Positions 2,259 to 22,196 of a stretch of DNA of 64,000 bases are shown in pieces; position 1 is the first letter of the stretch; the number at the start of each line of letters is the position of its first letter. Source of the stretch: an uncultured Gammaproteobacteria bacterium. Lineage in GTDB: Bacteria; Pseudomonadota; Gammaproteobacteria; Xanthomonadales; SZUA-38. The notes beneath the pieces were generated by a model. That model was not told the origin of the DNA and ran no database searches. It saw only the letters and a list, made by a program, of their open reading frames with translations. The position numbers and the translations under genes were made by a program. The DNA is taken from positions 7,856 to 71,855 of the forward strand of contig CAZLJY010000002.1 in assembly GCA_964559945.1 (NCBI GenBank). Reading direction: 5' to 3'.

Positions 2259-3398
2259 TTAGATATTGATTTTGAGTGCTTTTACAACGTCCATGGCAAT
2301 GTAATTGCTGCCAGCGGGAAGTCGTTTGGCGTTGGCGTAAGCCTTAGCCGCAGTCAAGGTTTGTGAACCCATGATGCCATCGATTGGGCCTTTGTAATGG
2401 CCTGCCGTCGCCAACGCACGCTGCAGCGCGGTAACGTTAGACTTGGTCATGTTGACTTCACATAGAACGCTTTCCCACTCCAAGTAGCTGTCCGTCACTT
2501 TTTCTGTCTTGGTAACGTTGGCGTACTCAGCAGGAATATCGATGCGGGTTTCCTGTGCTGGGCGAACCATCTTGGTCACATCGACCATGGCGTACTCAGC
2601 AGGAATGGTGACCGTGCGAGTGCTCGCTGGGGTCTTAACCACACGACGGGTAACCGTCTTGTACTCAGCCGGAATTTTGACTTCCCGGGTTGACGCTGGG
2701 CGATCCAATACGGTGCGAGAAACGGTCTTGTAGGTGGCAGGCACCTCAACCAGACACATGATCTCACCGGTTTCAGAGGATTGCTCAGCCAACACGTTAC
2801 CGGAATGGCCTGATGCTGGGCCACGCTTCCACAAGGTGTGAGCTGGCTTTTCCAGTACACGCTCGGTCACCGTCTTATAGGTGGCAGGTACTTCCTCGAG
2901 TCGAGAAGATGCAGGTCGAACCAAAACGCGCTCTTCCACAGTTCCGTAGACCGCAGGAACCACTTCCAGTCGCGAACTGGCTTCTTTCACCAACACTCGC
3001 TCCTGAGCATTTTCAAACCGAGCCGGGCTCACTTCGATACGCTGTGATTTTTCTTTCTTCAATACACGTTCTGAAGTGGTCTTGTATGTGGCTGGGGTCA
3101 AAATCCGAGCATAACATTCACCGACTTTCGGGTTAGGTGGGAACAAGCTGCTTTCGCCTGCTCCTGCCATCGCCTTAGCGGGTGCTGCTGATGATGATGC
3201 TGACATTTCCCGAGCCTTCATCAGCTCTTTGTCTTTTCGATTCAACTGGGTTTTCAGGTTAGCGATTTCCCGCTCAGCCTGTTGCAATTCGCTAGAATTT
3301 CGCGGCGCGCTTGCAGTTGAAGATTTTTCGGTTACCCCTGTGCAACCTGTTGCCAGGGCTGCGGTCATAGCTAGTGCTGACCATTTAATCATTTTCAT
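2259..3398 (-). CDS. Lipoprotein with eight short PAxYKTV-type repeats and a C-terminal peptidoglycan-binding (PG_binding_1-like) domain
   Basis: I prefer the ATG at 3398 because GGAG lies 7 nt upstream. This gives MKMIKWSALAMTAALATGC, a lipobox. A coiled-coil segment follows, then about 8 repeats such as EVPATYKTVTERVLEKPA. The C-terminus LQRALATAGHYKGPIDGIMGSQTLTAAKAY is typical of PG-binding domain 1. The ORF-track start at 3458 adds 20 non-signal residues. Confidence 0.7.
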   Translation of the reverse strand: MKMIKWSALAMTAALATGCTGVTEKSSTASAPRNSSELQQAEREIANLKTQLNRKDKELMKAREMSASSSAAPAKAMAGAGESSLFPPNPKVGECYARILTPATYKTTSERVLKKEKSQRIEVSPARFENAQERVLVKEASSRLEVVPAVYGTVEERVLVRPASSRLEEVPATYKTVTERVLEKPAHTLWKRGPASGHSGNVLAEQSSETGEIMCLVEVPATYKTVSRTVLDRPASTREVKIPAEYKTVTRRVVKTPASTRTVTIPAEYAMVDVTKMVRPAQETRIDIPAEYANVTKTEKVTDSYLEWESVLCEVNMTKSNVTALQRALATAGHYKGPIDGIMGSQTLTAAKAYANAKRLPAGSNYIAMDVVKALKINI

Positions 3399-3556
3399 AG
3401 TGCTTCTCCGTTGATGCCAAAAGAGGTCAGCGACCCACCCGCTTAGATCCGGGGCCAATTAGGTAAGCCGCGACCTCGATGCGAATTATAGAAGTGAGGT
3501 CACTGGCGACTTTAACGAATGCAACGCTTGTTTACAATTTAGCTGAAAGATACTGC

Positions 3557-3587
3557 TATAGCGGAAAAGTGGGAGCTTTCCGCTATA
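3557..3587 (-). terminator. Hairpin overlapping the Hpt stop codon (possible weak terminator)
   Basis: A perfect 11-bp stem pairs TATAGCGGAAA (3557-3567) with TTTCCGCTATA (3577-3587) around a 9-nt loop. The downstream minus-strand tail (GCAGTATCTTTC) is only weakly T-rich. Confidence 0.35.
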
Positions 3588-3939
3588 AAAAACGATTGGG
3601 GAAACGCATCAACTTGGTTACTCGCTCCAATCGCCGGCGGGTTACACTCGACAGTCGCACAGGCCCAGTCTCCGCCAGAACCTCATCAAGCTCTGCCTGT
3701 AGTGAGTCAAATTCACGATATAACTCGGTGAGATCATACAAACCTGAGCTGCCCCGCAATTGATGAACCTCGGTGCGTAGCTGTTGCATGGCCTGACGAT
3801 CTGGAGGCTCAGCGAGACATTTCTGTGTCCAATCCTCAATATCGATCAGCCGTTTAGCGAAGCTATCAACAAACTGGCGTTTAAGGCGTGCGATATGTGC
3901 TTCGGTGGCCGGTTTTAAGTTGCGGCGACTGTCTGTCAT
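3583..3939 (-). CDS. Stand-alone Hpt (histidine phosphotransfer) protein
   Basis: 118 aa. EVHQLRGSSGLYDLTEL matches the Hpt signature H-x-L-K/R-G-S-(S/A). The start overlaps the upstream kinase stop by 4 nt (ATGA). Confidence 0.7.
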   Translation of the reverse strand: MTDSRRNLKPATEAHIARLKRQFVDSFAKRLIDIEDWTQKCLAEPPDRQAMQQLRTEVHQLRGSSGLYDLTELYREFDSLQAELDEVLAETGPVRLSSVTRRRLERVTKLMRFPNRFL

Positions 3940-5462
3940 GGCGATTCCTGCAACGCGGTAGCGGCCTTTTCTACCAGCCCCGCCAATTCCTGAAGTTCAA
4001 AAGGTTTGCTGATGAACCCTATGCAGCCAGCAGCGCGGGTTCGCTCGAGAGTCTGGGCATCGGCAGCGGCAGACATAGCAAAAACACTAAGATTGGGTAA
4101 ACGACGTCTAAGCTCTTCAACCACTTGTAAACCATCGCTGCCATAGAGATCCAAATCGATCAGCGCAACATTGGGAACCAGGCCACCATCCAATTGTTGC
4201 TCGGTTTCGGATTGGCTTCGACAAAGGGTAACCTGATGGCCCGCGTCGGTCAGGGACAGGCGCAGCACTGCGCCAATATTTGGATCATCATCGACTACCA
4301 ATACCTTGGCGATAAAATGACTACACTGTTTTTTGTGATTGTTTACTTTCGGCTCGTCGTCCAGCTTGGCTAGGGGAAGCCTTAGGGTAAAGGTCGAACC
4401 CTGACCGGCCTGACTGGTCACATCGAGAATTCCACCCATGGCATCTGCTAGTTGTCGACTGATGGCCAACCCCAACCCAGCGCCAGGTCGTCCTGCCATA
4501 TCCTCACCACGCTCAAACGGCTTGAATATTCGTTCAATGTCAGACGCTGATATGCCGCAGCCAGTATCAACCACATCAATGACCAACCACTGATCGGCCT
4601 GTTGCCAGCGTAAATCAACACCGCCTGAGGACGTATGGCGAATAGCATTGGTCAATAAATTAATCAGAATCTGACGACAGCGGATGGGATCAATGACGAC
4701 ATCACCCACCGTGTCAGTGGGACCAGAGAGCGTCAGGGACAATTGCTGTTTGTCTGCCAGAGGTTTGACCTGCGCAATCACGCCAGCAAAAAATCCATCC
4801 GGTGCAACCTGCTCCAAATTCACCGCGATGGGCCCGCTATCCGATGACCCATGTTCCAAAAGATTGTCTACCAACGACAACAAATAAACGGCGGATTCCC
4901 GAATCCCCGACAAACCTTCTTCGTCTGTGGCTACGCCGGAACTCATCAAGTCAGCGAAACCCATCACAGAGGTCAGAGGCGTACGAAATTCGTGGGACAT
5001 ACCCGCGATAAAGCGGCTTTTTGCTTCACTAGCGGATTCGGCTTCAGTCCTGGCCAAATCCAGAGCGACGGTCAATTTTTCCAAGCGCCGATTTAGCAAA
5101 GCAATTTCATGGGCCTGCTGCTGGGTCTCGCGGGTTTCCGCGTGCTGCTCGTTGACGTCGACCAATAACACCTCAAATCCATCGCAAGATTCAAACAGAT
5201 GCACGTCAACGATAGCGCCGCCATCTAAGTTGACCACGGGAAAAGCAATGGGTGCGATTTCCTGCGCGCCAATCAGACAAGGCAGCTGATCGGTAAGGTG
5301 TAACCCCGGTTTGATCTGGTTTAACAGCGGCGAACCAAAACAGCGACGCACCATAAATTCGAAATCGGTTTCAATCCACTGAGGGGCATGAGCATGGGTA
5401 AGCACGTCGAACACCCGCTCGCGGATGTCCGGAGGCAACTGGGCACTAGTGGCAAGATTCAT
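3936..5462 (-). CDS. Soluble hybrid sensor histidine kinase (novel N-terminal domain, then HisKA, HATPase_c and REC)
   Basis: The H-box is SHEFRTPLTSVMGF. The N/G boxes are LLTNAIRHT, DTGCGI and GAGLGLAISRQLADAMGG. The C-terminal receiver is VLVVDDDP...ALIDLDLYGSDG...SKPF. No TM segment is visible. Confidence 0.9.
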   Translation of the reverse strand: MNLATSAQLPPDIRERVFDVLTHAHAPQWIETDFEFMVRRCFGSPLLNQIKPGLHLTDQLPCLIGAQEIAPIAFPVVNLDGGAIVDVHLFESCDGFEVLLVDVNEQHAETRETQQQAHEIALLNRRLEKLTVALDLARTEAESASEAKSRFIAGMSHEFRTPLTSVMGFADLMSSGVATDEEGLSGIRESAVYLLSLVDNLLEHGSSDSGPIAVNLEQVAPDGFFAGVIAQVKPLADKQQLSLTLSGPTDTVGDVVIDPIRCRQILINLLTNAIRHTSSGGVDLRWQQADQWLVIDVVDTGCGISASDIERIFKPFERGEDMAGRPGAGLGLAISRQLADAMGGILDVTSQAGQGSTFTLRLPLAKLDDEPKVNNHKKQCSHFIAKVLVVDDDPNIGAVLRLSLTDAGHQVTLCRSQSETEQQLDGGLVPNVALIDLDLYGSDGLQVVEELRRRLPNLSVFAMSAAADAQTLERTRAAGCIGFISKPFELQELAGLVEKAATALQESP

Positions 5463-5971
5463 TCGTCCGCCGGCAATCCCACCAGCTCGCGCGCCAAACG
5501 GATCAGCGCTTGGTCCACGTTCTGACCGGTTTTAGCGCTGGTGGTAAATACGTTCCAGCCATTGTCGGTTAACTGCTTCAAATTCATGTCATCAACTTCG
5601 CGCTCGCGTTTCAGATCAAGCTTATTAGCGAGCAGGCACAATGGCACCGCTCCGAAGCGACTGGCAACTTCTCGCTGAAGTTTCTTTGCAGTTGTTAACG
5701 TCTCAGCGCGAGTTAAATCACAAACCAGCACGATGCCTGATGCGCCGCGAACATAATTGGTGCGAAGCGCGTCCATTTCGTCCGCGCCGGCTATATCCCA
5801 TAGGATCAGCTTGGCGTCAGTGCCCTCCGGTAACGTCACCACTTTGGTGTCGATCTTGACACCCACGGTGGTCAGATACCGTTCGGAAAACGCCTGATCA
5901 ACGAAGCGCCGGACCAAACTGGTTTTACCCACCGAAAAATCGCCTAGTACACAGATCTTAAAGCTCTTCAC
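5459..5971 (-). CDS. Ras/Rab-like small GTPase
   Basis: 170 aa. The motifs are G1 GDFSVGKT, G2 YLTTVG, G3 WDIAGADE, G4 NKLD and G5 TSAK. The stop overlaps the kinase start by 4 nt. Confidence 0.88.
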   Translation of the reverse strand: MKSFKICVLGDFSVGKTSLVRRFVDQAFSERYLTTVGVKIDTKVVTLPEGTDAKLILWDIAGADEMDALRTNYVRGASGIVLVCDLTRAETLTTAKKLQREVASRFGAVPLCLLANKLDLKREREVDDMNLKQLTDNGWNVFTTSAKTGQNVDQALIRLARELVGLPADE

Positions 5972-5975
5972 GGGA

Positions 5976-7328
5976 TTACTCGTCGATAGGTGTTAGCGTT
6001 GCAGAGGGCCGAATCAAGCGGTTGGTATCCACTTGGACGTTGAGCCCAGAAAATTCAAGATGTGCGGCAAGCTTCTGGTACCAGTCGCTGTCTGTTTCAC
6101 CTGAAATGACTACGCGATCTCCCTGCAAGAAAAAAGAGACCCCCTCTGGCACCGGCGCCAAGGCCGCCTTCAATCGACGCAGCTCCATTCTTGGTAGCGC
6201 CGAGACAAAGGGCGTAGACCTAAACAAGACTTCATCGGCTTCAAAGCCCACATCGCTAACAAGGGACTGCAAATTGTCAGAAAATGGGTCCTGCAGTACC
6301 TCAATGGTTGCTGGCGATGCATCTTGTTCGGCGTTAACCCACACCACACCAGGGGTGGCGCGAATTGCCGCTTCCAGCGCCTGCCAACGCTGAGAATACT
6401 CGTAACTTCGCCAACCCCACCAAACAATAGCCGCTAGCAATGCCAGCAGGAGGAAAACCAGCACGCCTTTTACCACCGCACTAGGCTCAGATTTTTCCTC
6501 AGTGGCAGCAACATCGCTTTGTTGGATTACCGCCTGCATTTTGTTGAGCAACTCCGGTGGTGTGGAGTCAGTACCGTCAAAGTTGTTTAGAAAAGTGCCA
6601 TGCTGTTGATGCATGCTGGCCAGGTGATCGCGCAGGGTGATGCGAAGACTTAATGGAGGCTCACCGTCTAACACCAAGGCTAAACGCGCTCTTGGTCCTG
6701 TTAGCACCCAAAGTACCTGGCCGCCGAGTTCGGCGCTGGACAGCTCACCGTCACTGTCGCCAGTAGAATCGGCAACGAAATCCTGCACTGCCGTCAACAT
6801 GGCGGCAACCGCGTCCCGGTCCATTGCATCGGCAGCGGTTTCATCGCCAACGTGGGAGATCAGTAAGCCGTTTTCGTTATTAATTAACAGCGCTTCAGTG
6901 ACCCGGTAGCTAAGGGTATGGCGGAGCACCACTTCTCGAAAAGGCACACCCGTTCGCCAGGATTCCATGCGCCACTTGATATTGTCGGCGCTGATACCGC
7001 CAGTGAGACCCTTATTCAGCCCTTCCAACGCCGCGCGTAGTGCTTCAGAAATTGATCGACGAATTGCAGGACCCATAACCGGAAACAAAATCCCCGCAAG
7101 GTCGTCCGGATTTTCCGTCACCGACTCTTTTAATGCCCGAGCAACGGGCTTGCGCATAGCATCGGCTAGGTCATTGCCATCGGTGAGCTGACGGATGGCA
7201 TCGGGTAACACTTCAGCGACGTCTGGCAGACGCTGCTGTTTTTGTCCAACGCGCTCAGCGTATTCTTTGGCCGCCGATTGGTCGGCTTCGATGCCCAGAA
7301 GTTCTCGCAGGCGATGAACGTTGGACAT
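5976..7328 (-). CDS. Single-TM protein: cytoplasmic region with a possible Roadblock/LC7-like segment, periplasmic BON-like modules
   Basis: 450 aa. The TM segment is GVLVFLLLALLAAIVWWGW. The segment EALLINNENGLLISHVGDE...DAVAAMLTAVQDFV...GQVLWVLTGPRARLALVL has a Roadblock-like pattern, but this is an inference only. The C-terminal GVSFFLQGDRVVISGETDSDWYQKLAAHLEFSGLNVQVDTNRL is BON-like. Confidence 0.6.
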   Translation of the reverse strand: MSNVHRLRELLGIEADQSAAKEYAERVGQKQQRLPDVAEVLPDAIRQLTDGNDLADAMRKPVARALKESVTENPDDLAGILFPVMGPAIRRSISEALRAALEGLNKGLTGGISADNIKWRMESWRTGVPFREVVLRHTLSYRVTEALLINNENGLLISHVGDETAADAMDRDAVAAMLTAVQDFVADSTGDSDGELSSAELGGQVLWVLTGPRARLALVLDGEPPLSLRITLRDHLASMHQQHGTFLNNFDGTDSTPPELLNKMQAVIQQSDVAATEEKSEPSAVVKGVLVFLLLALLAAIVWWGWRSYEYSQRWQALEAAIRATPGVVWVNAEQDASPATIEVLQDPFSDNLQSLVSDVGFEADEVLFRSTPFVSALPRMELRRLKAALAPVPEGVSFFLQGDRVVISGETDSDWYQKLAAHLEFSGLNVQVDTNRLIRPSATLTPIDE

Positions 7329-7334
7329 GCGTCC

Positions 7335-7868
7335 TTACCGGTTTTTTCCGCGAGCAGGCGGGGTTTCGAGCTTACCTGCAAGTCCAGTTAGGAGTTTAGC
7401 CAACTCTGTGCGGCTGACGCTGTTTTGAGTAAGCCGAGAATCGACTTCATCCAACGCCTGTCCAATGGCATCACGATTGGCGTTGATCTGCTGGGTCAAC
7501 GTGGTTTTTAGTGCATCCAGCGCACCGGCAAGCTCAGTGGACTGTTGCTGGGAACTGGCTTCCAGGCTATCCAGTTGACGGGTTAACTCAGCGGCCTGAT
7601 TCTGGATTAATCCATCCAGGGACTCATACCCATCACGTCTTTGAGCCTCCTCAGCTTTTAGCTGTTTTCTGACCCCTTCTAGATGATCGTTGAGAGTGTC
7701 TAAGCGCTTGTTAAAGGAGGCATTGATTTTATTCTGCGCCTGTTCAAGCTTTCGCTCCAAAAGCGCAAACCGCTGCTCGTAATCCTTGATATGACCGCCA
7801 AACAGAATGTCCCGAATCTGCTCGACGTTGTCGGCGGCTGGAATAACCTCTTGTTGTTTTTTCGCCAT
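7335..7868 (-). CDS. Coiled-coil protein of unknown function
   Basis: 177 aa. It is rich in Q, E, L and A in heptad-like runs (LERKLEQAQNKINASFNKRLDTLNDHLEGVRKQLKAEEAQ...). It lies 6 nt upstream of the next gene. Confidence 0.65.
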   Translation of the reverse strand: MAKKQQEVIPAADNVEQIRDILFGGHIKDYEQRFALLERKLEQAQNKINASFNKRLDTLNDHLEGVRKQLKAEEAQRRDGYESLDGLIQNQAAELTRQLDSLEASSQQQSTELAGALDALKTTLTQQINANRDAIGQALDEVDSRLTQNSVSRTELAKLLTGLAGKLETPPARGKNR

Positions 7869-7906
7869 GCCTGCTTGTGTCCTAAGTCCTTGATGCCATC
7901 ACTATT

Positions 7907-8587
7907 TTACACACGCTGGAGTCGATAACCCTGCTGATAGATGCTACGCAACTCCCAACCTTGATCTTTCGTCCATCCCAATTTTTTCCTAAGCCTACTG
8001 GCATGGGTATCCACCGTTCGGGTTTCCACTGCGGTGCTCAGACCCCAGACCTCAAACATGATGCGTTCCCGAGTCACCACCACATTAAGGTTTTCTACCA
8101 GCGTGATAGCCATTTGAAATTCTCTACGAGTGAGAGCAACATTTTCCCCACCAACCGTAACCTTCTCACTGCGCCGGTCGAACTCATGCTCCCCTTCGCG
8201 CACCAACCACGCAGGCCCTTTGCTGCCGGTGCGTCGGACCAATGCATTGGTCCGCGCCATAAGCACAGTGCGGTCGAACGGTTTTGTGAGATAGTCATCG
8301 GCGCCGCTGTCCAGAGCCTCTACCAGGTCGGCATTGGCGTCACGGCCGGTTAGAAACAACACAGGCAACTGGGATTGCTGACTGTCGCGGATCCATTTAA
8401 GAACCCCAAGCCCCTGGACGTCTGGCAGCTCCCAATCCAGGATTGCTAGCCGGTAGTCGCGATGCAGAAACCCATTAACGAAGGATTTTGAGGTGGCAAA
8501 CAGGTCCACCTCAAATCCGGCGTCCTCAAGCCAGGCTTTCACCAGTTCTCCCTGGTGCTGATCATCCTCAAGGTACGCTATTAACAT
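7907..8587 (-). CDS. OmpR/PhoB-family DNA-binding response regulator
   Basis: The receiver is MLIAYLEDDQ...LAILDWELPD...LTKPF. The winged-helix region is LTRREFQMAITLVEN...VDTHASRLRKKL...GYRL. Confidence 0.9.
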   Translation of the reverse strand: MLIAYLEDDQHQGELVKAWLEDAGFEVDLFATSKSFVNGFLHRDYRLAILDWELPDVQGLGVLKWIRDSQQSQLPVLFLTGRDANADLVEALDSGADDYLTKPFDRTVLMARTNALVRRTGSKGPAWLVREGEHEFDRRSEKVTVGGENVALTRREFQMAITLVENLNVVVTRERIMFEVWGLSTAVETRTVDTHASRLRKKLGWTKDQGWELRSIYQQGYRLQRV

Positions 8588-8979
8588 GTTTTCAAAGGCC
8601 CCCTAAGCCTAAACGCGCCCTATAGTACCTTATAGGCATAGGGCAACCTGTAAACAACTGTGGTTAGACAATTGTCAGTAACGCGATGGCATTTTAGCCT
8701 GCTATCACATCTCAACGATTGTCGAGATGTCCGCGTTCGGGTTGAACAGTACTATAAGACATCGTTTCTAGCCTCCCCCTGATGCCAACGATGTGTTCGA
8801 CCCGGACGCGTTTTCACCTACTTGCCCCCCACTGGTCCATACATACCTACCGCTCGTCGATAAACACGCCCAAAACCGTTAACGATCATCGGGCTTTGAT
8901 GATGGCACTGCCATTGACAGAAATAATTGTATAAGGTGCGAAACGCCACCGGATTTCAGGCTAAAAAACGAGCGTAAAA
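8588..8979. promoter_or_regulatory. 392-bp divergent control region between the GTPase/phosphorelay operon and the barrel/giant-protein operon
   Basis: It is non-coding. The inverted repeats are CCTATA-N6-TATAGG (8619-8636) and ACATCTC-N10-GAGATGT (8707-8730). A minus-strand TTGTTT-N17-TATAAG candidate promoter overlaps the first palindrome. Confidence 0.4.
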
Positions 8980-10149
8980 ATGCGACATTTTTCCTTATTT
9001 ATTATGACGTTAGGGCTTTTCGCCTTATTCCAAGCTGGGGCCCAAGAACAGGCCATTAATATTGGCCGTATTCAGCTGTATCCGACCTTCGGAGCAGCCC
9101 TGGGTTATGACGATAACTTAGCGTTAAGCCGGTCAAACCCGATTAGTTCACGGTATCGTTTGCTCGAGCCTGGTATCCGCGCTGATTTGAACGGCCAAAA
9201 CCATCAATTTCGCGCCCAATATCGGATTTCCGATGCGAGCTTCTCGGACTCCGCAAGAGACGATTTCACCGATCAGTTTTTGGATTTGAGTTGGCGATAT
9301 ACCCCTACCATTCGATCTGATCTGACGCTCAGCGCTCGCTGGCACGAATCCCATGATCGTCGCGGCGAGGGCCTGCGAGAGAATTTCATTAATACCCTTG
9401 ATCGAGATGTTGATGAATTTCGGGATACGGGACTGGGATTGCGCTATACCCATGGCGCACCTGGCGCCCGAGGGCGGCTGGCGTTGTTTGCCGACGCCGG
9501 CGACAAACGATATGACAATAACCGAGATTTCACCGCTGCCGGCGACTATGACAGCTTCCGCTATGGCGGAGAATTCGGCTGGCGGGTAGGCGCCAGAACA
9601 ACCGCCATTTTACAGGCCAGTCAGACCGACATTAATTATGACCTCAGCGATCGCGATGCAGAACAACGGCAGCTGGCCGTAGGTGTGCTGTGGGATGGCG
9701 CTCCCCAATCCGATGCGCGGATTTTACTGGGTCGATTGAGTCGCTCACCAGATAGCGCCGATCAGCCAGATTTCTCCGGGGCATTTTGGGAAGCAGCTGT
9801 GAACTGGCGACCGGTAGAACGCTCCACATTTAGCCTAGTGACCAACCGTTCGACGGATGAAGCCTTCGGTAACGCGAGCTTCTTGGTTCGCGAGAGAATT
9901 GCACTGGGCTGGCGCCACCAGTGGCATGGCCGGCTTAGCACCGCACTGGATGTTGCGTTTGCCGACGAGAGCTTAAGACCAAGCGGGCGTGAGGATGACA
10001 TTGTGCAATATGGTGTTAGCGTCGATTACACCTTCAGACGTTGGCTATTGCTCGGGGCTGGTCTGCGCCATGTAGAGCGAGACTCTAACAACACTTTTTT
10101 TGACTACAGCCGAAATGAAATCTTGTTATCGGCCCAGCTAAGCCTGTAG
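8980..10149 (+). CDS. Outer-membrane beta-barrel protein (putative beta-barrel porin-2 / BBP2-like family)
   Basis: The signal peptide is MRHFSLFIMTLGLFALFQAGAQE. LYPTFGAALGYDDNL is an N-terminal strand motif typical of this family. Alternating aromatic/polar strands run to the C-terminus (NEILLSAQLSL). Confidence 0.65.
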   Translation: MRHFSLFIMTLGLFALFQAGAQEQAINIGRIQLYPTFGAALGYDDNLALSRSNPISSRYRLLEPGIRADLNGQNHQFRAQYRISDASFSDSARDDFTDQFLDLSWRYTPTIRSDLTLSARWHESHDRRGEGLRENFINTLDRDVDEFRDTGLGLRYTHGAPGARGRLALFADAGDKRYDNNRDFTAAGDYDSFRYGGEFGWRVGARTTAILQASQTDINYDLSDRDAEQRQLAVGVLWDGAPQSDARILLGRLSRSPDSADQPDFSGAFWEAAVNWRPVERSTFSLVTNRSTDEAFGNASFLVRERIALGWRHQWHGRLSTALDVAFADESLRPSGREDDIVQYGVSVDYTFRRWLLLGAGLRHVERDSNNTFFDYSRNEILLSAQLSL

Positions 10150-10167
10150 GCACTTAAAGGATTACCC

Positions 10168-13100
10168 ATGACGACTATTAAAAGGAATACAGGCACCTCC
10201 GCACTGCTTATGGCAGGCGGCTTGCTGCTAGGGACCGTCGCAGGCGCACTGGAAATACCGCCACCAGGGGACCCGTTTTTCATTCAAACCAACTCATCGG
10301 ACGCCGCCATTGGTCTTGGCGACTGGTACACCGCCAGCAACAACGGCGTTGGCGGTGGCTTTCACTACGTAGGCATATTCGTGCCCTGTGGCTGGCCGGT
10401 GGATCAAGAAATCCATATCGACTTGTTCAGTCCGGAAATGAATACCAACAATCCGGTTACCGATGAACCCAATAGCGGTGGATTAGGCACAACTACCTTT
10501 GAATTGTTTGGGGTTGGGACAACCGTCGCTAGCCCAGCAACCCCGGCGCCTGGTGCCGCGGGTTCGCTGTTGTCCATAGATTACCCGCCCAGCAGTGATC
10601 CCGAGCAGTGGATTCGGGCATTCACCCTGGGTGATGACGCTGGCGCAACGGCTCCCATCAGCTGCGGCCAATATGTGCTGCGCATTGGCTCAACCCAAGA
10701 TGATCAAAATGCTTGGCGACTGCGGGTAGGGTTCGACGATGACAACAACCCTAACAATGCATTTCCTCCCAACTGGGATGATTTAGACGGCGTTCCTGGG
10801 ACCGATGACGAACTGCTGGTGGGGCTTTATCAATACGCCTTTCAACAGAACTCCGGCGGTGTGCAGTGCAACACCTTATTTGAGTTTGTCGAGGAAAACT
10901 CTAGCTGCCCTAGTTCTCCGCCAACTCCTCCAGACAGTAATGTCTGCTTTAACAACTTTGACATGGACAACAACACCAGAGTCCGTTATTACCCGCCTCT
11001 GACCCCCCTGGACCCGAACGGGCTGATTGGAGGCGTTCCAGGCACCCTGTCAGGTAACGGTGTGTGGAATGGGGGAACTCAAACCACCCGAGGCGGTGAC
11101 GTCATTACCAACCCTGATGTGGGTTGGTGGGGCATTGTGACCTGCTTGTCTAACAACAATCAGCTGGCCCAAGATGCCCAGGAGAATGTTCCTCAATTTA
11201 ATCAAATCCCCCCTATTCCGGTGATTGAATTGTTGAAAGATGATGGAACAGTGGTTGCCAATGCTGGCGATACGCTGACCTACAACATCCGCTTTGAGAA
11301 CATTTCTGACGACGACCTACTGCCCGGCGCAGCCCGCAATTTGCAGTTAGTGGACACGCTACCGTCGGACGTGAGCTATGTATCTTGCGCCATCAACGCA
11401 CCCTTCAGCGGGGTTTGTAGCGAGTCCGGTGGAGTGGTGACTTATGACATCACTGAGACTGTATTGGCGGGAGACGTTGGAACCTTAAGCCTAGTGGTAA
11501 CGATTGACCCAGCGGCAACGTTTCCGTTTACCAACAACATCGTTGCGACCTACACCGATAGCTGGGAAGTAGGCACCTATACTGCCGAAGATGACGAAAC
11601 CACCTTTAGCGCGACGCCCCTTAGCCTGGTCAAAACCGTCGACACCCCCCTTGCCGCAGTGGGCGATGAGGTCAACTACACCTACACGATCACCAATATC
11701 TCTCCAGACCCGGTAGTGGTCATTGATCTGGTTGACGACAAAATTGGTACGTTCCAATTTCCCGAGCAATTTCCCAATGCAGTTGCGCTGTATGACTTCT
11801 CTCAAGGCCCAGACCCGGACATCGTACGCGATACCTCGGGATTTTTGTCTACGCTAGATTTAACCGTGGAAGCGCCGCCGGTGGTCTATGAACTGAACCC
11901 TGAGCGGATCGACATCAACACCTCCAACCGGATATCTAACGCCACCGACAACAATAAAATTGTTAGTGAATGCCAGGCCGAAGGCCAATTTGCTCTGGAA
12001 GCCTGGGTGCAGCCTCTTGGTGTTTTACAAGGTGGACCAGCACGAATTGTTCATTCATCCTTAGACGATGCCAATATCAATTTCAGCCTCTATCAAGACA
12101 ACGATCAATACGGTTTCTTCATTCGCACGCCGTCCAATACCGATCCAGTTAATGACATCGTACTCAATACCGCCCCGAGTTCTGTCAGCACCGACCTGAC
12201 CCATCTTTTGGTCGTGGTCTCGGCGACTGGCGATGCAACGCTATATCAAGATGGTGTGGTGTCAGCATCCGCTAACGTGGGCGCAACCAACAACTTCAGT
12301 AACTGGGATACCAGTTGGGATTTTGGCCTCGGCAATCAGTTCTCAGCGGCGCCAACATCAAGCGCGCAAGATTGGCAGGGGCAAATCTACAAAACTGCCA
12401 TTTACTGTGATGAAATTCGCCCAGAAGACGCGGGCAACCTCTTTAACCTTGGCAGTGAAAACGACCCTAGCGGCAACCGATTGCTAGAGCCCGGTGAGCA
12501 GGTGGTGCTGACTGCCCCCTACACAATTACCACCAGCGATTTCCCCGGCCCAGTGGTCAACATCGCTGAGGTGCGTGGCCTTACTGCCGGCGATCTTAGC
12601 TTTACCGTCACAGACACTGAGTCCGTCGACATCGATACCCAAGCGCTGGAGCTGACCAAGCAATCGGATGCCACCGGCGAGGTGGTCCCTGGGCAAATTA
12701 TCACTTACACCTTGACCGTCACCAATACCGACAGCATCACCCACACCGGTCTAACCGTGGTAGATCCCTTGCCTGCTGGCACGAGCTACGTCCCACAGTC
12801 CACCCAGGTTCAAGGACGGCGCGCACAAGTCATCGACTATCGGGACAACTTTAACGACACGCCAGTCACCTATTCTGGATCCAGTGGGGCGACACCCTGG
12901 GCCGGAAGCTGGATCGAGCTGGATAACGGTGCCAGCGATGGCCCGGCCGCAGGTGAGGTATTCATAAGCGGCGGCGAACTCCAGTTTGATCAGCCCGATT
13001 CTGCCGACGATACGGACTTTGACACCCTCCAACGGGCGGCTGATCTGAGCGGTGCCAGCAGCGCAAACCTCACCTTTGACTTCGACTTCGATGGCGCAAC

Positions 13101-16100
13101 CGAAGACTGTGATGGCGCTCTGGGCGCTGATGATTGCCTGTTTGCGGAAGCGTCCAATGACGGCATCAATTGGACCACTCTGGATACACTCGGTGGCGAG
13201 CCTGACAACAACAATGGCACCCGCACCGTTGCTATACCTGCCGGCCTTGTGGGCGCCACCACCCAAATTCGTTTTAGAGCTCTGGGCTTTCGCGGTGGCG
13301 ATGAAAACGTCAGCGTCGATAATGTTGTGGTTTCTGCATCGCTGACCGGGCCGGTGAGCTTAGACAATGTTCCGGGCGGCGCTAACGATTTGGACGATGG
13401 GGTACCCCAGGATCTGGTCACAACAAACGACAACCTGATTCTCAACCCGAATGAATCCATGACGGTTACCTTTCAAGTGCAAGTGGATGATCCGCTGAAC
13501 TCCAATATCGTGGCCATTCGTAATTTGGCGTCCGCTGACTCAGACCAAGGCACCCCCGCGGTGGCTGAAGTGCTGGATCCGGTGCGACCGCTGGGTGGGC
13601 AGATTGGCGATTCTGTTTGGCTGGATGCAGATGCTGATGGCATCTTCGATTTAGGTGAAGCGGGTCTTGCCAATGTTGTGGTAGAACTCATTGACCCCGC
13701 CGATGGATCAGTCATTGCAACCACAACGACCGACCTCACGGGCCGCTATCTATTCCCCAACTTGCCTGCTGGCGACTACGATGTAAGAGTCGACACAAGC
13801 ACCCTACCTGCTGGGCTGGTTGCCGGCCCCGGCAACAACAACCCCGCCGGTACGTTTACCATCACTGGCGCTGAACAATTCAACAATGCCGATTTCGGTT
13901 ATGTCACCACTCCTGGCGACGCCATCATCGGCGACAGCGTATTTTCTGACACCGACGGGGACGGCCTGCAGGACCCTGGCGAGGCCGGTTTTGGCGGCGT
14001 AACCGTAGAGTTGCGCGATGCCCTCACCGGTGCGGTGATTGCCACCACCACCACTGGCCCAGACGGTCGCTATCTGTTCACTGGAGTCGCCCCAGGCACC
14101 TATGTAGTGAACGTTACGGATACGGGCAACGTCCTGGCCAACGCCAGCAGCACCACCGGTGGCAATGAGTCTGCGCCGGTATCAGTAGGTGCAGGGGACG
14201 TCATCACCGATGTTGACTTCGGTTATCTGGATCCGTTTACCTTCAGTCTGACCGACGACGTGTGGTTTGATGCAGACGGCAATGGCCTTCGTACCAGTAA
14301 CGAAAGCGGTATCAGCGGGGTTAGCGTGAGTCTGCTTGACGCCGCTGGCAACGTGGTTGCCACCACCATCAGCGGAGCCGACGGTTCAGTGACATTCTCT
14401 GGTTTGCCCAACGGCGACTATCAACTGGCTCTTACAGACACCCAGGGCCGGCTGACTGGCTTTGGCGCCACAACCCCTGGCGCGGTCAATCGCTCGGCGA
14501 CTAACACCATTAACAACAGCGACGCCAGTGGTCGCAACTTCGGCTTCAATCTGCCCGGACTCGTCGGCAACGAAGTGTTTTCCGACGCCAACGGCAACGG
14601 CATCTTGGATCCTGGCGAAGTATTGATTCCGGGGGTTGATCTATCCCTGTTCGTCGACGACGGCGATGGTGTGTTCGATTCCACTGTCGATACATTGGTC
14701 AATTCAGACCAAACCGACTCCGGCGGTATCTACGACTTCCGCGGGTTGGCGTTCTCCCAGTACTTCGTCTCTCTGGATACTACCCAGCCAGAGTTGGCCG
14801 GTGCTACCTTGACCACCGGCGACTCACAAACTGGTGGTAACGCTGGCGGCGCGCAAATCGATGTCACCTTAAGCGGTGGTAACGGCGGCGTATTAACCGC
14901 CGATTTCGGATTCCTGAATTCCGCCCTGCCAGATCTCAGCGGCAATGTCTTTGAAGATCTGGACCGAGACGGCGTAGACGATGGCGTAGCCGAAGCGGGC
15001 TTCGCGGGCGTCACCATCGAACTGATTGCTGCAGGTCCTGATGGTGTGCTGGGAAGCGCCGATGACCTGGTGGTGGCTACCGCTCTCACCGACGCCAATG
15101 GCGACTATGAGTTTGTCGACGTACCGCCAGGCGACTACCGCCTTGCTGTCACCGATCGCAGCCAGGTTCTCACTGACTTTGGATTGACCAGTGGCTTAGA
15201 TCAGCTGGATCTGACAGTCGCCAACAGCGATATCAACGATCTAGACTTTGGCTATGCCCGAGCCTTTGGCGATGCCAGCCTGGGAGACTTGGTGTGGCTG
15301 GATGCCAATGGCAATGGCATCAACGAAGCGGGAGAAAACGGTATACCCGGCGTCACCCTGAACCTTTTTGACGCCGGCCCAGACGGCGTCATCGGCGGCG
15401 GTGATGACGTGTTGATTGCCAACACGGTTACCGATCAATTGGGCGGATTTGATTTCAAGAACCTGCCAGCGGGTCGCTACTACGTAGATGTTGACGACAG
15501 CACGATTCCACCAGGCTTAACTTTGAGCCCTGGCCTTACGGACCCCAGTGCTGTGGTTGCTCTGGGCGCCGGCGATAACAACGACACCTTGGAATTCGGT
15601 TACCGTCCAACCCCTGGCACCGCCTATATCGGCGATCAGGTTTGGATCGACGCTAACGGCAATGGTGAATTTGATCCTGGTGAAGCTGGCCTTCCTGGGG
15701 TTACCGTTGACCTGGTTGGTGCCGGGGCGGATGGCCAGTTAGGCACCGCAGACGACCTTACCCTTAGCACCGTCACCGATGGCGATGGAACCTACGCCTT
15801 CGACGGTCTGCCCCCAGACACCTACGCAGTCACGGTGAACACTGGCAGCCTGCCCGCAGGCTTCAATACCACGCCAACCAACGCTCAGGAAACCTACCAG
15901 CTGGTCGCTGACGCGGATACGGCCTACGTGCTGCTGGACTGGGGTTTTCAGCCCCAAACGCCATTGGCGTCATTGGGCGACCGAGTCTTCATCGACAACG
16001 ACGGCGATGGTGTACAAGATGCCGATGAGAGTGGACTTGGCGGGCTCACTATTGACTTACTGGGCCCCGGTCCAGACGGCATCTTCGGTACCGCAGATGA

Positions 16101-19100: not shown

Positions 19101-19548
19101 TATTCTGGGCGCCATCAACAGTGGTGTTGCGCTAACTAACTACTTCGGCCACTCCGGATTCACCGAATGGGGACGAACCGATCGACTGCTCACTTCAAAC
19201 GACGTGGATACACTCAGCAATGTCGGCTTGCCCACCGTGGTCAATCAGTGGGGTTGCTGGAATGCTTACTACGTATCACCGTTTGCCGACACGCTGGCTC
19301 ATCGCTTCTTGATTGGCGGCGAACACGGGGCTGCCGCGATCCTCGGCCCAGTATCCCTAACCCGGCTGTCGTCCGAACAACTACTAAGCAACTTGAGTTT
19401 CGCCGAGATGGTCAGCGCTGGACAATCCGTCGGCCAATCGATCGTGAATGGCAAACAAGAACTAGCAGCTAATCACGAGAACCGCGAAGACGTTGTTCTG
19501 GGCTTCACCCTGCTAGGTGACCCGGCAATTCAGATAGAAAACGAATGA
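10168..19548 (+). CDS. Giant (3126 aa) secreted multidomain surface protein with a C-terminal peptidase C25 (gingipain-like) domain
   Basis: AAAGGA lies 8 nt upstream of the ATG and there is an 18-nt gap from the barrel gene. The signal peptide is [17 protein letters not shown]. DUF11/TIGR01451-type modules are present ([14 protein letters not shown]..., [15 protein letters not shown]..., [15 protein letters not shown]...LPAGTSY). It also has a LamG-like domain, 10 SdrD-B-like repeats and a C25 domain. Confidence 0.9.
   Translation: [3126 protein letters not shown]
11781..12460 (+). other. LamG / concanavalin-A-like lectin domain within the 3126-aa protein
   Basis: [26 protein letters not shown]...FALEAWVQP...ARIVHSS...[18 protein letters not shown]...[15 protein letters not shown] follows the Laminin_G_3 pattern. 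Confidence 0.6.
13594..17043 (+). repeat. Ten tandem SdrD-B-like (Cna-B fold, Ca-binding) repeats of about 100-125 aa
   Basis: The recurring motif is GDxVW/FxDxNGNGxxDxGExGxxGVTVxL...DGxYxFxxLxPGxYxV, e.g. [30 protein letters not shown]...[18 protein letters not shown]. Confidence 0.8.
18500..19545 (+). other. Peptidase C25 (gingipain-like) catalytic domain with an intact His/Cys dyad
   Basis: The domain begins [37 protein letters not shown] and continues [15 protein letters not shown]...ALGRFPVRT. The candidate catalytic His is in NYFGHSG (codon 19150-19152). The candidate Cys is in [10 protein letters not shown] (19255-19257), 35 residues later. The domain ends LLGDPAIQ. Confidence 0.75.
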
Positions 19549-22034: not shown

Positions 22035-22196
22035 CAGGACTTCCTTGGCTCGGAGAAACAAGCGGGAAGTATTCCACAGCAAAACAATTCACGTCATAGG
22101 AAATTTATCCCACTGAATGATCATGCATAGAAAGTACTGCGATGGATTGATGGAGCCGACCCCAGCGATCGCTGAAGCCGGCGCCAATATTTAGGT

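What the first reader, a model, noticed from the sequence alone, without database searches (positions are those of the whole stretch)
3583..8587. Six-gene operon joining a eukaryote-like Ras/Rab small GTPase to a complete His-Asp-His-Asp phosphorelay
**Seen.** Six minus-strand genes are packed with gaps of 38, 6 and 4 nt and two 4-nt ATGA overlaps. They encode an OmpR-type response regulator, a 177-aa coiled-coil protein and a 450-aa single-TM protein. The remaining three are a 170-aa small GTPase with all five G motifs, a soluble hybrid histidine kinase (HisKA-HATPase-REC) and a stand-alone Hpt protein.

**Established.** Bacterial Ras-superfamily GTPases are best known as MglA/MglB polarity modules and as the Streptomyces conservons (sensor kinase, Roadblock, DUF742, GTPase).

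**Inference.** This is a different wiring. The GTPase nucleotide state is probably read into, or set by, a multistep phosphorelay that ends in a DNA-binding regulator. The operon is divergent from the barrel/giant-protein operon at 8980, which is an obvious candidate target. I do not recognise this six-gene arrangement as a described system.
Basis: partly seen in the sequence, partly recalled or inferred. Interest (0 to 1): 0.75.

Follow-up and report, generated by a model that had tools for sequence, protein, structure and literature searches.

The report
Rab-like GTPase switch feeding a phosphorelay
This six-gene operon is a real, widely conserved bacterial signalling unit in which a membrane sensor probably controls a Rab-like GTPase that in turn drives a four-step phosphorelay to a gene regulator; its four-gene core was described by computation in 2014 (the "Group 1 Rup" system) but has never been tested in the laboratory.

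Summary
**Observation:** confirmed.

**Novelty claim:** only partly right.
- The central four genes match the "Group 1 Rup" system of Wuichet & Søgaard-Andersen 2014. These are the coiled-coil protein, the single-TM protein, the Ras/Rab-like GTPase without the catalytic Gln, and a signalling protein with a special N-terminal domain.
- That system has the same gene order, and a histidine kinase is one of its typical outputs.

**What this work adds:**
- The six-gene form is co-conserved. It adds an OmpR-type regulator, a hybrid kinase and a separate Hpt protein. Of 36 related loci with a hybrid kinase, 26 carry both extra genes, in different genomic contexts and in two gene orders.
- The 450-aa protein is predicted to have a cytoplasmic Roadblock/longin (MglB-like) domain, one TM helix and periplasmic BON-like modules. 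Most homologues also carry OmpA.
- The kinase N-terminus is a divergent PAS-like domain with a near-invariant Gln. The same domain is fused elsewhere to PP2C, cyclase, HD-GYP or PAS outputs. This places the GTPase upstream of the output.

**Limits:** all interactions are inferred. The link to the divergent barrel/giant-protein operon holds only in the closest relatives.

**Verdict:** a variant of a known but uncharacterised kind; moderately interesting.

The parts
7907..8587 (-). OmpR/PhoB-type response regulator (226 aa). It has a REC domain with D51, T80 and K102, plus a winged-helix DNA-binding domain. It is the predicted terminal acceptor of the relay.
   Evidence: Pfam Response_reg 2e-23 and Trans_reg_C 5.2e-19. 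Residues. An OmpR-type regulator sits directly upstream of the coiled-coil gene in most of the 28 hybrid-kinase loci that have one (28 of 36).
7335..7868 (-). Coiled-coil cytoplasmic protein (177 aa), the "DUFY" of Group 1 Rup systems. It has an invariant N-terminal motif, I-R19-D-I-L-F-G24.
   Evidence: Only sub-threshold coiled-coil Pfam hits. No hydrophobic segment. Homologue present in 84 of 88 loci; R19 88/88, G24 88/88, F23 86/88.
5976..7328 (-). Single-pass membrane protein (450 aa), the "DUFX" of Group 1 Rup systems and the predicted sensor/regulator of the GTPase.
   Evidence: No Pfam or NCBIfam family. AF2 model with mean pLDDT 85. The family has 3,289 clusters at 50% identity. Most homologues are about 630 aa with a C-terminal OmpA domain, which is absent here.
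6579..6947 (-). Predicted Roadblock/longin-like (MglB-like) domain of the 450-aa protein, about aa 128-250, with topology alpha-beta-beta-alpha-beta-beta-beta-alpha.
   Evidence: Secondary-structure order in the AF2 model. Foldseek against the PDB finds MglB (3t12, 1j3w, 6h5b, 6hjm; 20-27% identity, E about 1e-4, probability 1.0), Mon1-Ccz1, TRAPP, AP sigma, zeta-COP, Ykt6, Sec22b and Asgard Roadblock3. The relation is not detectable by sequence profile. The tool does not print aligned query ranges, so the residue range is inferred from topology.
6411..6479 (-). Transmembrane helix of the 450-aa protein (about aa 284-306).
   Evidence: Highest 19-residue hydropathy of the six proteins, 2.84 at aa 284. 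It lies within a long helix, aa 284-324, in the model.
6009..6353 (-). Periplasmic region of the 450-aa protein with two beta-beta-alpha-beta modules (about aa 326-440), predicted BON-like.
   Evidence: The model has pLDDT above 95 here. Foldseek finds DolP 6xmv, BonA 6v4v and OsmY 8rjx. The family profile matches Rv0899, whose match extends N-terminal of the OmpA-like domain.
5459..5971 (-). Rup-family small GTPase (170 aa), Rab-like. It has G1 to G5, Ala63 in place of the catalytic Gln, and Phe12 at the Ras Gly12 position.
   Evidence: Pfam Ras 1.9e-35. Rab1B is the best solved relative, 2.6e-26. In 75 orthologues the post-G3 residue is E/A/T/S/D and Gln only once; F12 is present in 66/75 and D59 in 75/75.
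3936..5462 (-). Soluble hybrid histidine kinase (508 aa): PAS-like input domain, HisKA (H157), HATPase_c and REC (D436).
   Evidence: Pfam. Residues and absence of a TM segment. 36 related loci carry the same architecture next to the GTPase.
5106..5441 (-). N-terminal PAS-like domain of the kinase (about aa 8-103) plus its exit helix (104-119). The helix carries the near-invariant Q114/Q115. This is the predicted GTPase-binding input domain.
   Evidence: AF2 model with pLDDT 80. Foldseek finds the FlrB PAS-like domain 7yrt at E = 7.7e-4 and VC2136 9p6i. Q115 is conserved in 50/51 and D102 in 47/51. The same domain is fused to SpoIIE/PP2C, class III cyclase, HD_5 or PAS in other loci.
3583..3939 (-). 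Stand-alone Hpt phosphotransfer protein (118 aa), with H59 in the motif H-Q-L-R-G-S-S.
   Evidence: Pfam Hpt 23.8 bits against a cut-off of 24.6. H59, G63, S64 and Y68 are invariant in 30/30 homologues. Present in 28 of 36 hybrid-kinase loci, either after the kinase or before the regulator.
3556..3588 (-). Terminator-like hairpin (13 pairs) overlapping the Hpt stop codon; the probable 3' end of the operon.
   Evidence: This is a consensus match only, the T-tail is weak, and the number of such sites in the region is not above the shuffled expectation.
8588..8979 (.). Divergent 392-nt intergenic region between the regulator gene and the barrel gene. It holds conserved blocks, including the inverted repeat ACATCGT-N20-ACGATGT (8756-8797) and the block TGACAATTGnCTAnCCACAGTTGTTTACAGGT (about 8640-8675).
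   Evidence: and the alignment of four relatives. Function is untested.
2259..3458 (-). [quoted passage not shown] It is a recurrent neighbour and a possible accessory, not part of the six-gene operon.
   Evidence: PG_binding_1 at 25 bits. Lipobox LATGC in the sequence. Homologues lie beside the cluster in two lineages.
8980..19548 (+). Divergent neighbour operon: a BBP2_2/EpsL-like outer-membrane barrel (8980-10149) and a 3,126-aa surface protein with a C-terminal Peptidase_C25 (10168-19548). It is a candidate target only.
   Evidence: Pfam and NCBIfam. The barrel gene is adjacent only in the closest relatives.

Best explanation
The operon encodes a Group 1 Rup signalling system whose output is a full His-Asp-His-Asp phosphorelay.

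**Proposed mechanism**
1. The 450-aa bitopic inner-membrane protein places BON-like modules in the periplasm. Most relatives add a peptidoglycan-binding OmpA domain. These modules report an envelope state.
2. The protein's cytoplasmic Roadblock/longin-like domain acts on the Rab-like GTPase, as a GAP (like MglB) or as a GEF platform (like longin/Roadblock GEFs). The coiled-coil protein with the invariant R-x-x-L-F-G motif probably assists.
3. The GTPase lacks the catalytic Gln and carries Phe at the Ras-G12 position. It is therefore probably a slow switch that depends on partner proteins to turn off.
4. In one nucleotide state the GTPase binds the PAS-like N-terminal domain of the soluble hybrid kinase. 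This changes autophosphorylation through the helix that carries the invariant Gln.
5. Phosphate then passes from H157 to D436 in the kinase, to H59 of the Hpt protein, and to D51 of the OmpR-type regulator, which changes transcription.

**Shown:** gene order, domain content, key residues, predicted folds and co-conservation.

**Inferred:** every protein-protein contact, the GAP or GEF role, the signal sensed and the regulon.
For: **Match to the published Group 1 Rup description**
- Gene order DUFY > DUFX > Rup, followed by a signalling output.
- Ala63 instead of Gln. Gln occupies this position in 1 of 75 orthologues.
- Q115 of the output's N-terminal region is conserved in 50/51.

**Co-conservation**
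- In 88 loci with a DUFX homologue, DUFY is present in 84 and Rup in 75.
- 36 loci have a hybrid kinase. Of these, 28 have an OmpR-type regulator, 28 have Hpt and 26 have both.
- Flanking genes differ between loci and there are two Hpt positions.

**Direction of signalling**
- The kinase's N-terminal domain also precedes SpoIIE/PP2C, class III cyclase, HD_5 and PAS outputs encoded next to Rup.

**Predicted folds**
- DUFX: Roadblock/longin plus BON.
- Kinase N-terminus: PAS-like.

**Other**
- Relay residues are intact.
- Tight spacing with ATGA overlaps.
Against: - No experiment exists for any Group 1 Rup system in the literature searched.
- The Roadblock relation rests on a predicted structure and Foldseek E-values near 1e-4. 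Sequence profiles see nothing significant. The aligned query range was not printed.
- The invariant Gln lies in a low-confidence helix (pLDDT 50-65). It could be a structural residue of the signalling helix rather than a catalytic one.
- This locus lacks the OmpA domain that suggested envelope sensing in relatives.
- Eight of the 36 hybrid-kinase loci lack an adjacent OmpR-type regulator, and eight lack an adjacent Hpt gene.
Confidence: 0.6

Rival explanations
1. The flow is reversed. The phosphorelay, or the kinase alone, sets the nucleotide state or localisation of the GTPase. The GTPase is then the true output, as was proposed for the actinobacterial conservon.
For: - Wuichet & Søgaard-Andersen argue that in conservons the GTPase is the output.
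- The invariant Gln in the kinase N-terminal region could make the kinase a GAP, so that it acts on the GTPase.
Against: - The same N-terminal domain precedes five unrelated enzymatic or output modules. This is the pattern of a shared input domain.
- The operon ends in a DNA-binding regulator that co-occurs with the hybrid kinase (26 of 36 loci have both the regulator and Hpt).
- The only periplasmic (sensor-like) part is on the 450-aa protein, not on the kinase.
Confidence: 0.15
2. Two independent systems lie side by side: a three-gene GTPase module acting on something else, such as polarity or envelope assembly in the manner of MglA, and an ordinary phosphorelay that merely shares the operon.
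For: - Bacteroidota and Acidobacteriota loci have the three-gene core with kinases that my profile did not recognise as carrying the N-terminal domain.
- Eight hybrid-kinase loci lack an adjacent regulator.
Against: - In the 89 fetched loci (all chosen for carrying a DUFX homologue) the kinase's PAS-like N-terminal domain lies immediately after Rup genes, whatever output domain follows it. Whether the domain also occurs away from Rup loci was not tested.
- Regulator and Hpt genes occur almost only where the output is a hybrid kinase. Of the loci without a recognisable hybrid kinase, only four have a regulator and two have Hpt; several of these are short contigs on which no kinase gene is seen after the GTPase gene.
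- ATGA overlaps couple the GTPase, kinase and Hpt genes.
Confidence: 0.1
3. The GTPase is a permanently GTP-bound (or non-cycling) scaffold subunit rather than a switch. The membrane protein and coiled-coil protein simply tether the kinase to the envelope, and the PAS-like domain senses a small ligand.
For: - The catalytic Gln is absent and a bulky Phe sits at the Ras-G12 position in 66/75 orthologues. Both features impair hydrolysis in Ras (established knowledge).
- PAS domains commonly bind ligands.
Against: - All nucleotide-binding motifs, and the switch I Thr (T35, 70/75), are strictly kept.
- Pairing with a Roadblock/longin-type domain is typical of regulated GTPases.
- The invariant Arg (DUFY R19) and Gln (kinase Q115) are candidates for residues supplied in trans.
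Confidence: 0.15

Closest known systems
Group 1 Rup system (Wuichet & Søgaard-Andersen 2014, Genome Biol Evol 7:57, PMC4316618); computational description only
   Same: - Gene order: coiled-coil protein (DUFY), membrane protein (DUFX), Rup GTPase, then a signalling output.
- The GTPase keeps Ras-like G1 to G5 but lacks the G3 Gln.
- The output protein has a special N-terminal region with an invariant Gln.
- A histidine kinase is one of the two typical outputs.
- Gammaproteobacteria are among the listed hosts.
   Different: - The main text and the Table S2 section examined list only the three- or four-gene core. Hpt is not mentioned anywhere in the paper, and no regulator is mentioned for Rup systems.
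- Here the output is a hybrid kinase with a co-conserved Hpt protein and OmpR-type regulator.
- DUFX here lacks the OmpA domain.
- The paper states that Rup GTPases are not predicted to work with MglB homologues. The predicted DUFX structure contains an MglB-like Roadblock fold.
MglA/MglB polarity module of Myxococcus xanthus and Thermus thermophilus
   Same: A small Ras-superfamily GTPase is paired with a Roadblock-fold regulator. MglB chains are the top Foldseek hits of the 450-aa protein. Both are linked to response-regulator signalling.
   Different: - The GTPase is Rab-like with D-x-x-G (D59 in 75/75). MglA homologues instead carry Thr at this conserved Asp position (PMC3000849 abstract).
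- The Roadblock-like domain is embedded in a membrane protein and is not recognisable by sequence.
- The output is transcriptional through a phosphorelay, not pole-to-pole localisation.
Actinobacterial conservon (CvnA-D; mfp operon of mycobacteria)
   Same: [quoted passage not shown]
   Different: - The conservon kinase is a membrane sensor with HAMP and has no partner regulator.
- The conservon GTPase belongs to the MglA family.
- CvnC is DUF742 and CvnB is a stand-alone Robl_LC7 protein.
- Here the kinase is soluble and hybrid with Hpt and a regulator. The membrane part sits on the Roadblock-bearing protein. No DUF742 is present.
Multistep phosphorelays with a separate Hpt protein (LuxQ-LuxU-LuxO; RcsC-RcsD-RcsB; TorS and ArcB as fused forms)
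   Same: Hybrid kinase (HisKA-HATPase-REC), then Hpt, then a DNA-binding regulator. The best NCBIfam similarities of the kinase are TorS, BarA, ArcB, LuxQ and RcsC, all far below their cut-offs.
   Different: The input is not a periplasmic or membrane sensor domain of the kinase. It is a cytoplasmic PAS-like domain, found in the fetched loci next to Rup GTPase genes.
Eukaryotic longin/Roadblock regulators of small GTPases (Mon1-Ccz1 with Rab7, TRAPP with Rab1, Ragulator/GATOR1 with Rag)
   Same: A Rab-like GTPase is paired with a membrane-attached longin/Roadblock-fold regulator. These complexes are among the Foldseek hits.
   Different: This is a fold-level resemblance in a predicted model only. 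No sequence-level homology was shown, and neither GEF nor GAP activity has been tested.

Membership tests
Group 1 Rup system | Single-domain Ras-superfamily GTPase with eukaryote-like G1 to G5 motifs (Rup family, not MglA) | tested here: met
   Pfam Ras 1.9e-35. Rab1B is the best solved relative, 2.6e-26. G1 to G5 located. D59 of D-x-x-G present in 75/75.
Group 1 Rup system | Catalytic Gln after the G3 motif is absent | tested here: met
   Ala63 in the window. Among 75 orthologues the residue is E 27, A 16, T 9, S 8, D 6 and Q only 1.
Group 1 Rup system | Conserved gene order DUFY (coiled-coil) > DUFX (membrane protein) > Rup | tested here: met
   The window order is 7335-7868, 5976-7328, 5459-5971, all on the minus strand. 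The same order holds in nearly all of 88 loci and in the paper's Table S2.
Group 1 Rup system | [quoted passage not shown] | tested here: met
   Conserved cytoplasmic region and one TM helix are present. OmpA is present in most homologues but absent from this protein and its nearest relatives (445-467 aa). The paper says "often", so absence does not exclude membership.
Group 1 Rup system | The fourth gene encodes a signalling output (GGDEF/EAL or histidine kinase) whose N-terminal region has an invariant Gln | tested here: met
   A hybrid histidine kinase follows Rup. Q115 is conserved in 50/51 homologous N-terminal domains, including 15/15 non-kinase outputs.
MglA/MglB module | MglA-type GTPase with Thr in place of the conserved G3 Asp | tested here: not met
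   G3 is W-D59-I-A-G; D is present in 75/75 orthologues. The criterion is taken from the PMC3000849 abstract.
MglA/MglB module | Partner protein of the Roadblock/LC7 family (MglB) recognisable as Robl_LC7 | tested here: inconclusive
   No Robl_LC7 hit by Pfam or PDB sequence profiles. The predicted structure of the 450-aa protein nevertheless matches MglB chains by Foldseek (E about 1e-4, probability 1.0).
Actinobacterial conservon (CvnA-D) | Four genes: membrane HAMP histidine kinase, stand-alone Roadblock protein, DUF742 protein, MglA-family GTPase; no response regulator | tested here: not met
   The kinase is soluble and hybrid. There is no DUF742 and no stand-alone Roadblock protein. The GTPase is Rup-type. 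A regulator and an Hpt protein are present.
Multistep His-Asp-His-Asp phosphorelay | Hybrid kinase with a phosphorylatable His and receiver Asp, an Hpt His, and a regulator receiver Asp | tested here: met
   H157 (H-box S-H-E-F-R-T-P), D436, Hpt H59 (30/30 invariant) and regulator D51. These are sequence features only; phosphotransfer cannot be tested with these tools.
Multistep His-Asp-His-Asp phosphorelay | Demonstrated phosphotransfer between the four sites | not testable with these tools
   This needs purified proteins and radiolabelled or Phos-tag phosphotransfer profiling.

The most novel reading that the evidence does not exclude
Group 1 Rup systems may be a widespread bacterial form of transmembrane G-protein signalling. 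The DUFX cytoplasmic region alone defines about 3,300 protein clusters at 50% identity.

In this reading, a periplasmic BON/OmpA envelope sensor controls a Rab-like GTPase through a built-in Roadblock/longin domain. That is the same regulator fold used by eukaryotic Rab and Rag GEFs and GAPs.

The downstream effector's PAS-like domain and helix would both read the GTP state and supply the missing catalytic Gln, so the effector acts as the GAP. The six-gene form in this window would then be the cleanest version for reconstituting GTPase-to-phosphorelay coupling.
Probability: 0.3. Interest if true: 0.8.

Novelty: new variant of a known kind. Interest (0 to 1): 0.55.

Why it matters
**An uncharacterised bacterial branch of the Ras superfamily.** Rup GTPases are the bacterial relatives closest to eukaryotic Ras and Rab proteins. 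No paper found in the searches here characterises one experimentally.

**A testable chain.** This locus lays out a complete path: membrane sensor, GTPase, soluble kinase, Hpt protein and DNA-binding regulator. Each step has a standard biochemical assay.

**Possible evolutionary link.**
- The 450-aa protein may carry a Roadblock/longin fold.
- If so, Rab-like GTPases in bacteria are paired with the same regulator fold as in eukaryotes.
- That would revise the 2014 view that Rup proteins work without MglB-like partners, and would bear on how the GTPase-plus-longin/Roadblock pairing arose.

**An annotation gap.** The DUFX family has about 3,300 clusters at 50% identity and relatives in at least 564 species genomes, yet none of the Pfam or NCBIfam searches run here matched it.

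Tried and rejected
**Searches that led nowhere**
- Searching the protein database with the kinase's N-terminal 151 aa alone found one fragment. The word index was too insensitive. Homologues were recovered instead from the full-length kinase search plus a local jackhmmer.
- Sequence-profile tests of the Roadblock-like region against PDB and Pfam gave nothing significant. The only trace was Fuz_longin_1 at E = 0.01 in 2 of 26 members. The Roadblock assignment therefore stays at fold level.
- Literature searches for an experimental study of Group 1 Rup found none. They used system names, locus tags from the 2014 table and domain combinations. One search was swamped by plant RUP1 papers.

**Ideas considered and rejected or left open**
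- MglA/MglB and conservon membership were rejected on tested features (see the membership table).
- The barrel/giant-protein operon as the regulator's target: adjacency holds only in near relatives. The hexamer AACGAT occurs four times in the intergenic region, but it is also twice as common as expected across the whole window. There is no tandem-repeat geometry typical of OmpR-family sites. No binding site is claimed.
- Promoter and terminator scans inside the operon were no richer than shuffled sequence.

Full report
**1.

The ORF list gives six minus-strand genes at 7907-8587, 7335-7868, 5976-7328, 5459-5971, 3936-5462 and 3583-3939. The gaps are 38, 6 and 4 nt, with two 4-nt overlaps. Both overlaps read ATGA.

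Pfam assigns the following:

| Gene | Pfam result |
|---|---|
| Regulator (226 aa) | Response_reg + Trans_reg_C |
| 170-aa protein | Ras, 1.9e-35 |
| Kinase (508 aa) | HisKA, HATPase_c, Response_reg |
| 118-aa protein | Hpt, 23.8 bits (cut-off 24.6) |
| 177-aa and 450-aa proteins | no significant family (only sub-threshold coiled-coil matches for the 177-aa protein) |

- NCBIfam also has no significant model for the 177-aa and 450-aa proteins.
- All four phosphorelay residues are present: kinase H157 and D436, Hpt H59, regulator D51.
- All five G motifs are present.
- Only the 450-aa protein has a membrane-grade hydrophobic segment, at about aa 284-306.

**2. The core is already described.**

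Wuichet & Søgaard-Andersen (PMC4316618) define the Rup family and within it "Group 1".
- The rup gene lies with three conserved genes.
[quoted passage not shown] - The third encodes a signalling output, typically GGDEF/EAL or a histidine kinase. Its N-terminal region carries an invariant Gln.
- The authors note that the Gln could replace, in trans, the catalytic Gln that Group 1 Rup proteins lack.
- Their Table S2 writes the order as DUFY > DUFX(:OmpA) > Rup, in Bacteroidetes, Chloroflexi, Cyanobacteria, Nitrospira and several proteobacterial classes.
- The paper never mentions Hpt.

**3. Membership was tested, not assumed.**

- The GTPase has W-D-I-A-G-A63. In 75 orthologues taken from related loci, this position is E/A/T/S/D and Gln only once.
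- D59 is invariant, which excludes the MglA type.
- Phe occupies the Ras-G12 position in 66/75.
- The best solved relative is Rab1B at 2.6e-26, where the aligned residue is the catalytic Gln.
- The gene order matches.
- The 450-aa protein's homologues are mostly about 630 aa with a C-terminal OmpA domain. This protein and its nearest relatives (445-467 aa) lack OmpA.
- The kinase's N-terminal domain has Q115 conserved in 50/51, including 15/15 non-kinase outputs.

Every defining feature I could test is met.

**4. The six-gene form is a conserved unit.**

- Neighbourhoods of eight homologues of the 450-aa protein show the same six genes in close relatives (L001-L004).
- Distant loci with 31-47% identity also show them, with unrelated flanking genes (L005, L006, L007, L009).
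- A Rubricoccaceae locus has only the four-gene core.

With local profiles built from the window proteins:

| Feature | Count |
|---|---|
| Loci with a DUFX homologue | 88 |
| of these, with DUFY | 84 |
| of these, with Rup | 75 |
| Loci with the hybrid kinase | 36 |
| of these, with an OmpR-type regulator | 28 |
| of these, with Hpt | 28 |
| of these, with both | 26 |

- Hpt lies after the kinase in the window type and before the regulator in the Woeseiaceae type.
- Regulator and Hpt genes are nearly absent where the output is not a hybrid kinase.

**5. Predicted folds of the unknown parts.**

*The 450-aa protein.*
- The AlphaFold2 model has mean pLDDT 85.
- It shows a helical N-terminal region, then an alpha-beta-beta-alpha-beta-beta-beta-alpha domain at about aa 128-250.
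- A long TM helix follows, then two very confident beta-beta-alpha-beta modules in the C-terminal part.
- Foldseek against the PDB returns MglB chains (20-27% identity, E about 1e-4, probability 1.0) and longin/Roadblock subunits. The latter include Mon1-Ccz1, TRAPP, AP sigma, zeta-COP, Ykt6, Sec22b, GATOR1/Ragulator and an Asgard Roadblock.
- It also returns the BON proteins DolP, BonA and OsmY.
- The family profile matches Rv0899, and the match extends N-terminal of the OmpA-like domain.
- Sequence profiles of the Roadblock-like region find nothing significant. This probably explains why the 2014 study concluded that Rup proteins have no MglB partner.

*The kinase N-terminus.*
- The model has pLDDT 80.
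- It is PAS-like, matching the FlrB PAS-like domain at E = 7.7e-4 and VC2136.
- It has a conserved Asp at the end of the last strand (D102, 47/51).
- Q114/Q115 lie in the exit helix towards HisKA.

*The coiled-coil protein.*
- It has an invariant N-terminal I-R-D-I-L-F-G motif, with R19 in 88/88.

**6. Direction of signalling.**

The PAS-like domain also precedes other output domains in genes that follow rup:
- SpoIIE/PP2C phosphatase domains (Variovorax and others)
- class III cyclase domains
- HD_5 (HD-GYP-type) domains
- a PAS-only protein

A domain shared by many different outputs, each encoded next to the same GTPase, is best read as the GTPase-responsive input. The nucleotide state is therefore probably read into the relay rather than set by it.

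The only periplasmic, sensor-like portion of the system is on the 450-aa protein. This suggests an envelope signal. Whether its Roadblock-like domain is a GAP (as in MglB) or a GEF platform (as in longin/Roadblock complexes) cannot be decided here.

**7. Surroundings.**

- A hairpin overlapping the Hpt stop codon (3556-3588) may end the operon.
- The divergent operon encodes a BBP2_2/EpsL-like barrel and a 3,126-aa repeat protein ending in Peptidase_C25.
- The barrel gene is adjacent to the cluster only in the window and five close loci. The target idea is therefore weak.
- The 392-nt intergenic region has blocks conserved among four relatives, including an 8-bp inverted repeat about 20 nt apart. 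No OmpR-type tandem site is evident.
- A lipoprotein with a peptidoglycan-binding domain (2259-3458) accompanies the cluster in two lineages.

**8. Verdict.**

This is a member of a known but purely computational and uncharacterised kind, in a conserved variant that extends the output to a full phosphorelay. No experimental study of such a system was found.

The additions made here are:
- the six-gene census;
- the Roadblock/longin plus BON prediction for DUFX;
- the PAS-like identity and modularity of the output's input domain.

These raise its value as a test system. All mechanistic steps remain inferences.

Noticed in passing
window 2259-3458 (-): A 399-aa predicted lipoprotein (lipobox LATGC, repeated P-A-x-Y-K-T-V motifs, C-terminal PG_binding_1) lies just after the Hpt gene. 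Homologues sit beside the Rup cluster in close relatives, and also 1.5-2.5 kb upstream on the opposite strand in Woeseiaceae-type loci. It might supply the peptidoglycan contact that the OmpA-less membrane protein here lacks.
   Followed up: partly
window 10168-19548 (+): A 3,126-aa protein with 10 SdrD_B repeats, CarboxypepD_reg, DUF11/CLIPPER and Laminin_G_3 domains and a C-terminal Peptidase_C25 (gingipain-type) domain. It is preceded by a BBP2_2/EpsL-like outer-membrane barrel (8980-10149). This is an unusual adhesin-protease fusion.
   Followed up: partly
window 8756-8797 and about 8640-8675: Blocks in the divergent intergenic region are conserved across four relatives. One is the inverted repeat ACATCGT-N20-ACGATGT enclosing GGGGGAGGC. 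The other is TGACAATTGnCTAnCCACAGTTGTTTACAGGT, upstream of the regulator gene. These could be operator or promoter elements.
   Followed up: partly
loci L023, L027, L030, L046, L050, L089; proteins P0243-P0262: Giant forms of the membrane protein (about 550-1,500 aa) have a duplicated match to the cytoplasmic region and extra periplasmic modules. In the loci examined, no adjacent Rup ORF was detected. They occur in Beggiatoa/Thiotrichales-type genomes among others.
   Followed up: no
window 20850-22082 (-) and 19747-20856 (-): A PrnB homologue (monodechloroaminopyrrolnitrin synthase, Pfam E = 2.4e-180) lies next to a class-V aminotransferase/kynureninase-like gene. This suggests a tryptophan-derived secondary-metabolite pathway.
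   Followed up: no
Rup orthologue alignment (window 5459-5971 and loci): Lys5 and Cys7 in the first beta-strand are invariant (75/75), and Phe at the Ras-G12 position is present in 66/75. These features are not discussed in the parts of the 2014 paper examined here.
   Followed up: no
whole window: The hexamer AACGAT occurs 56 times against about 28 expected from shuffles (0 of 100 shuffles reach 56). This is unexplained and may be a codon-usage effect.
   Followed up: no
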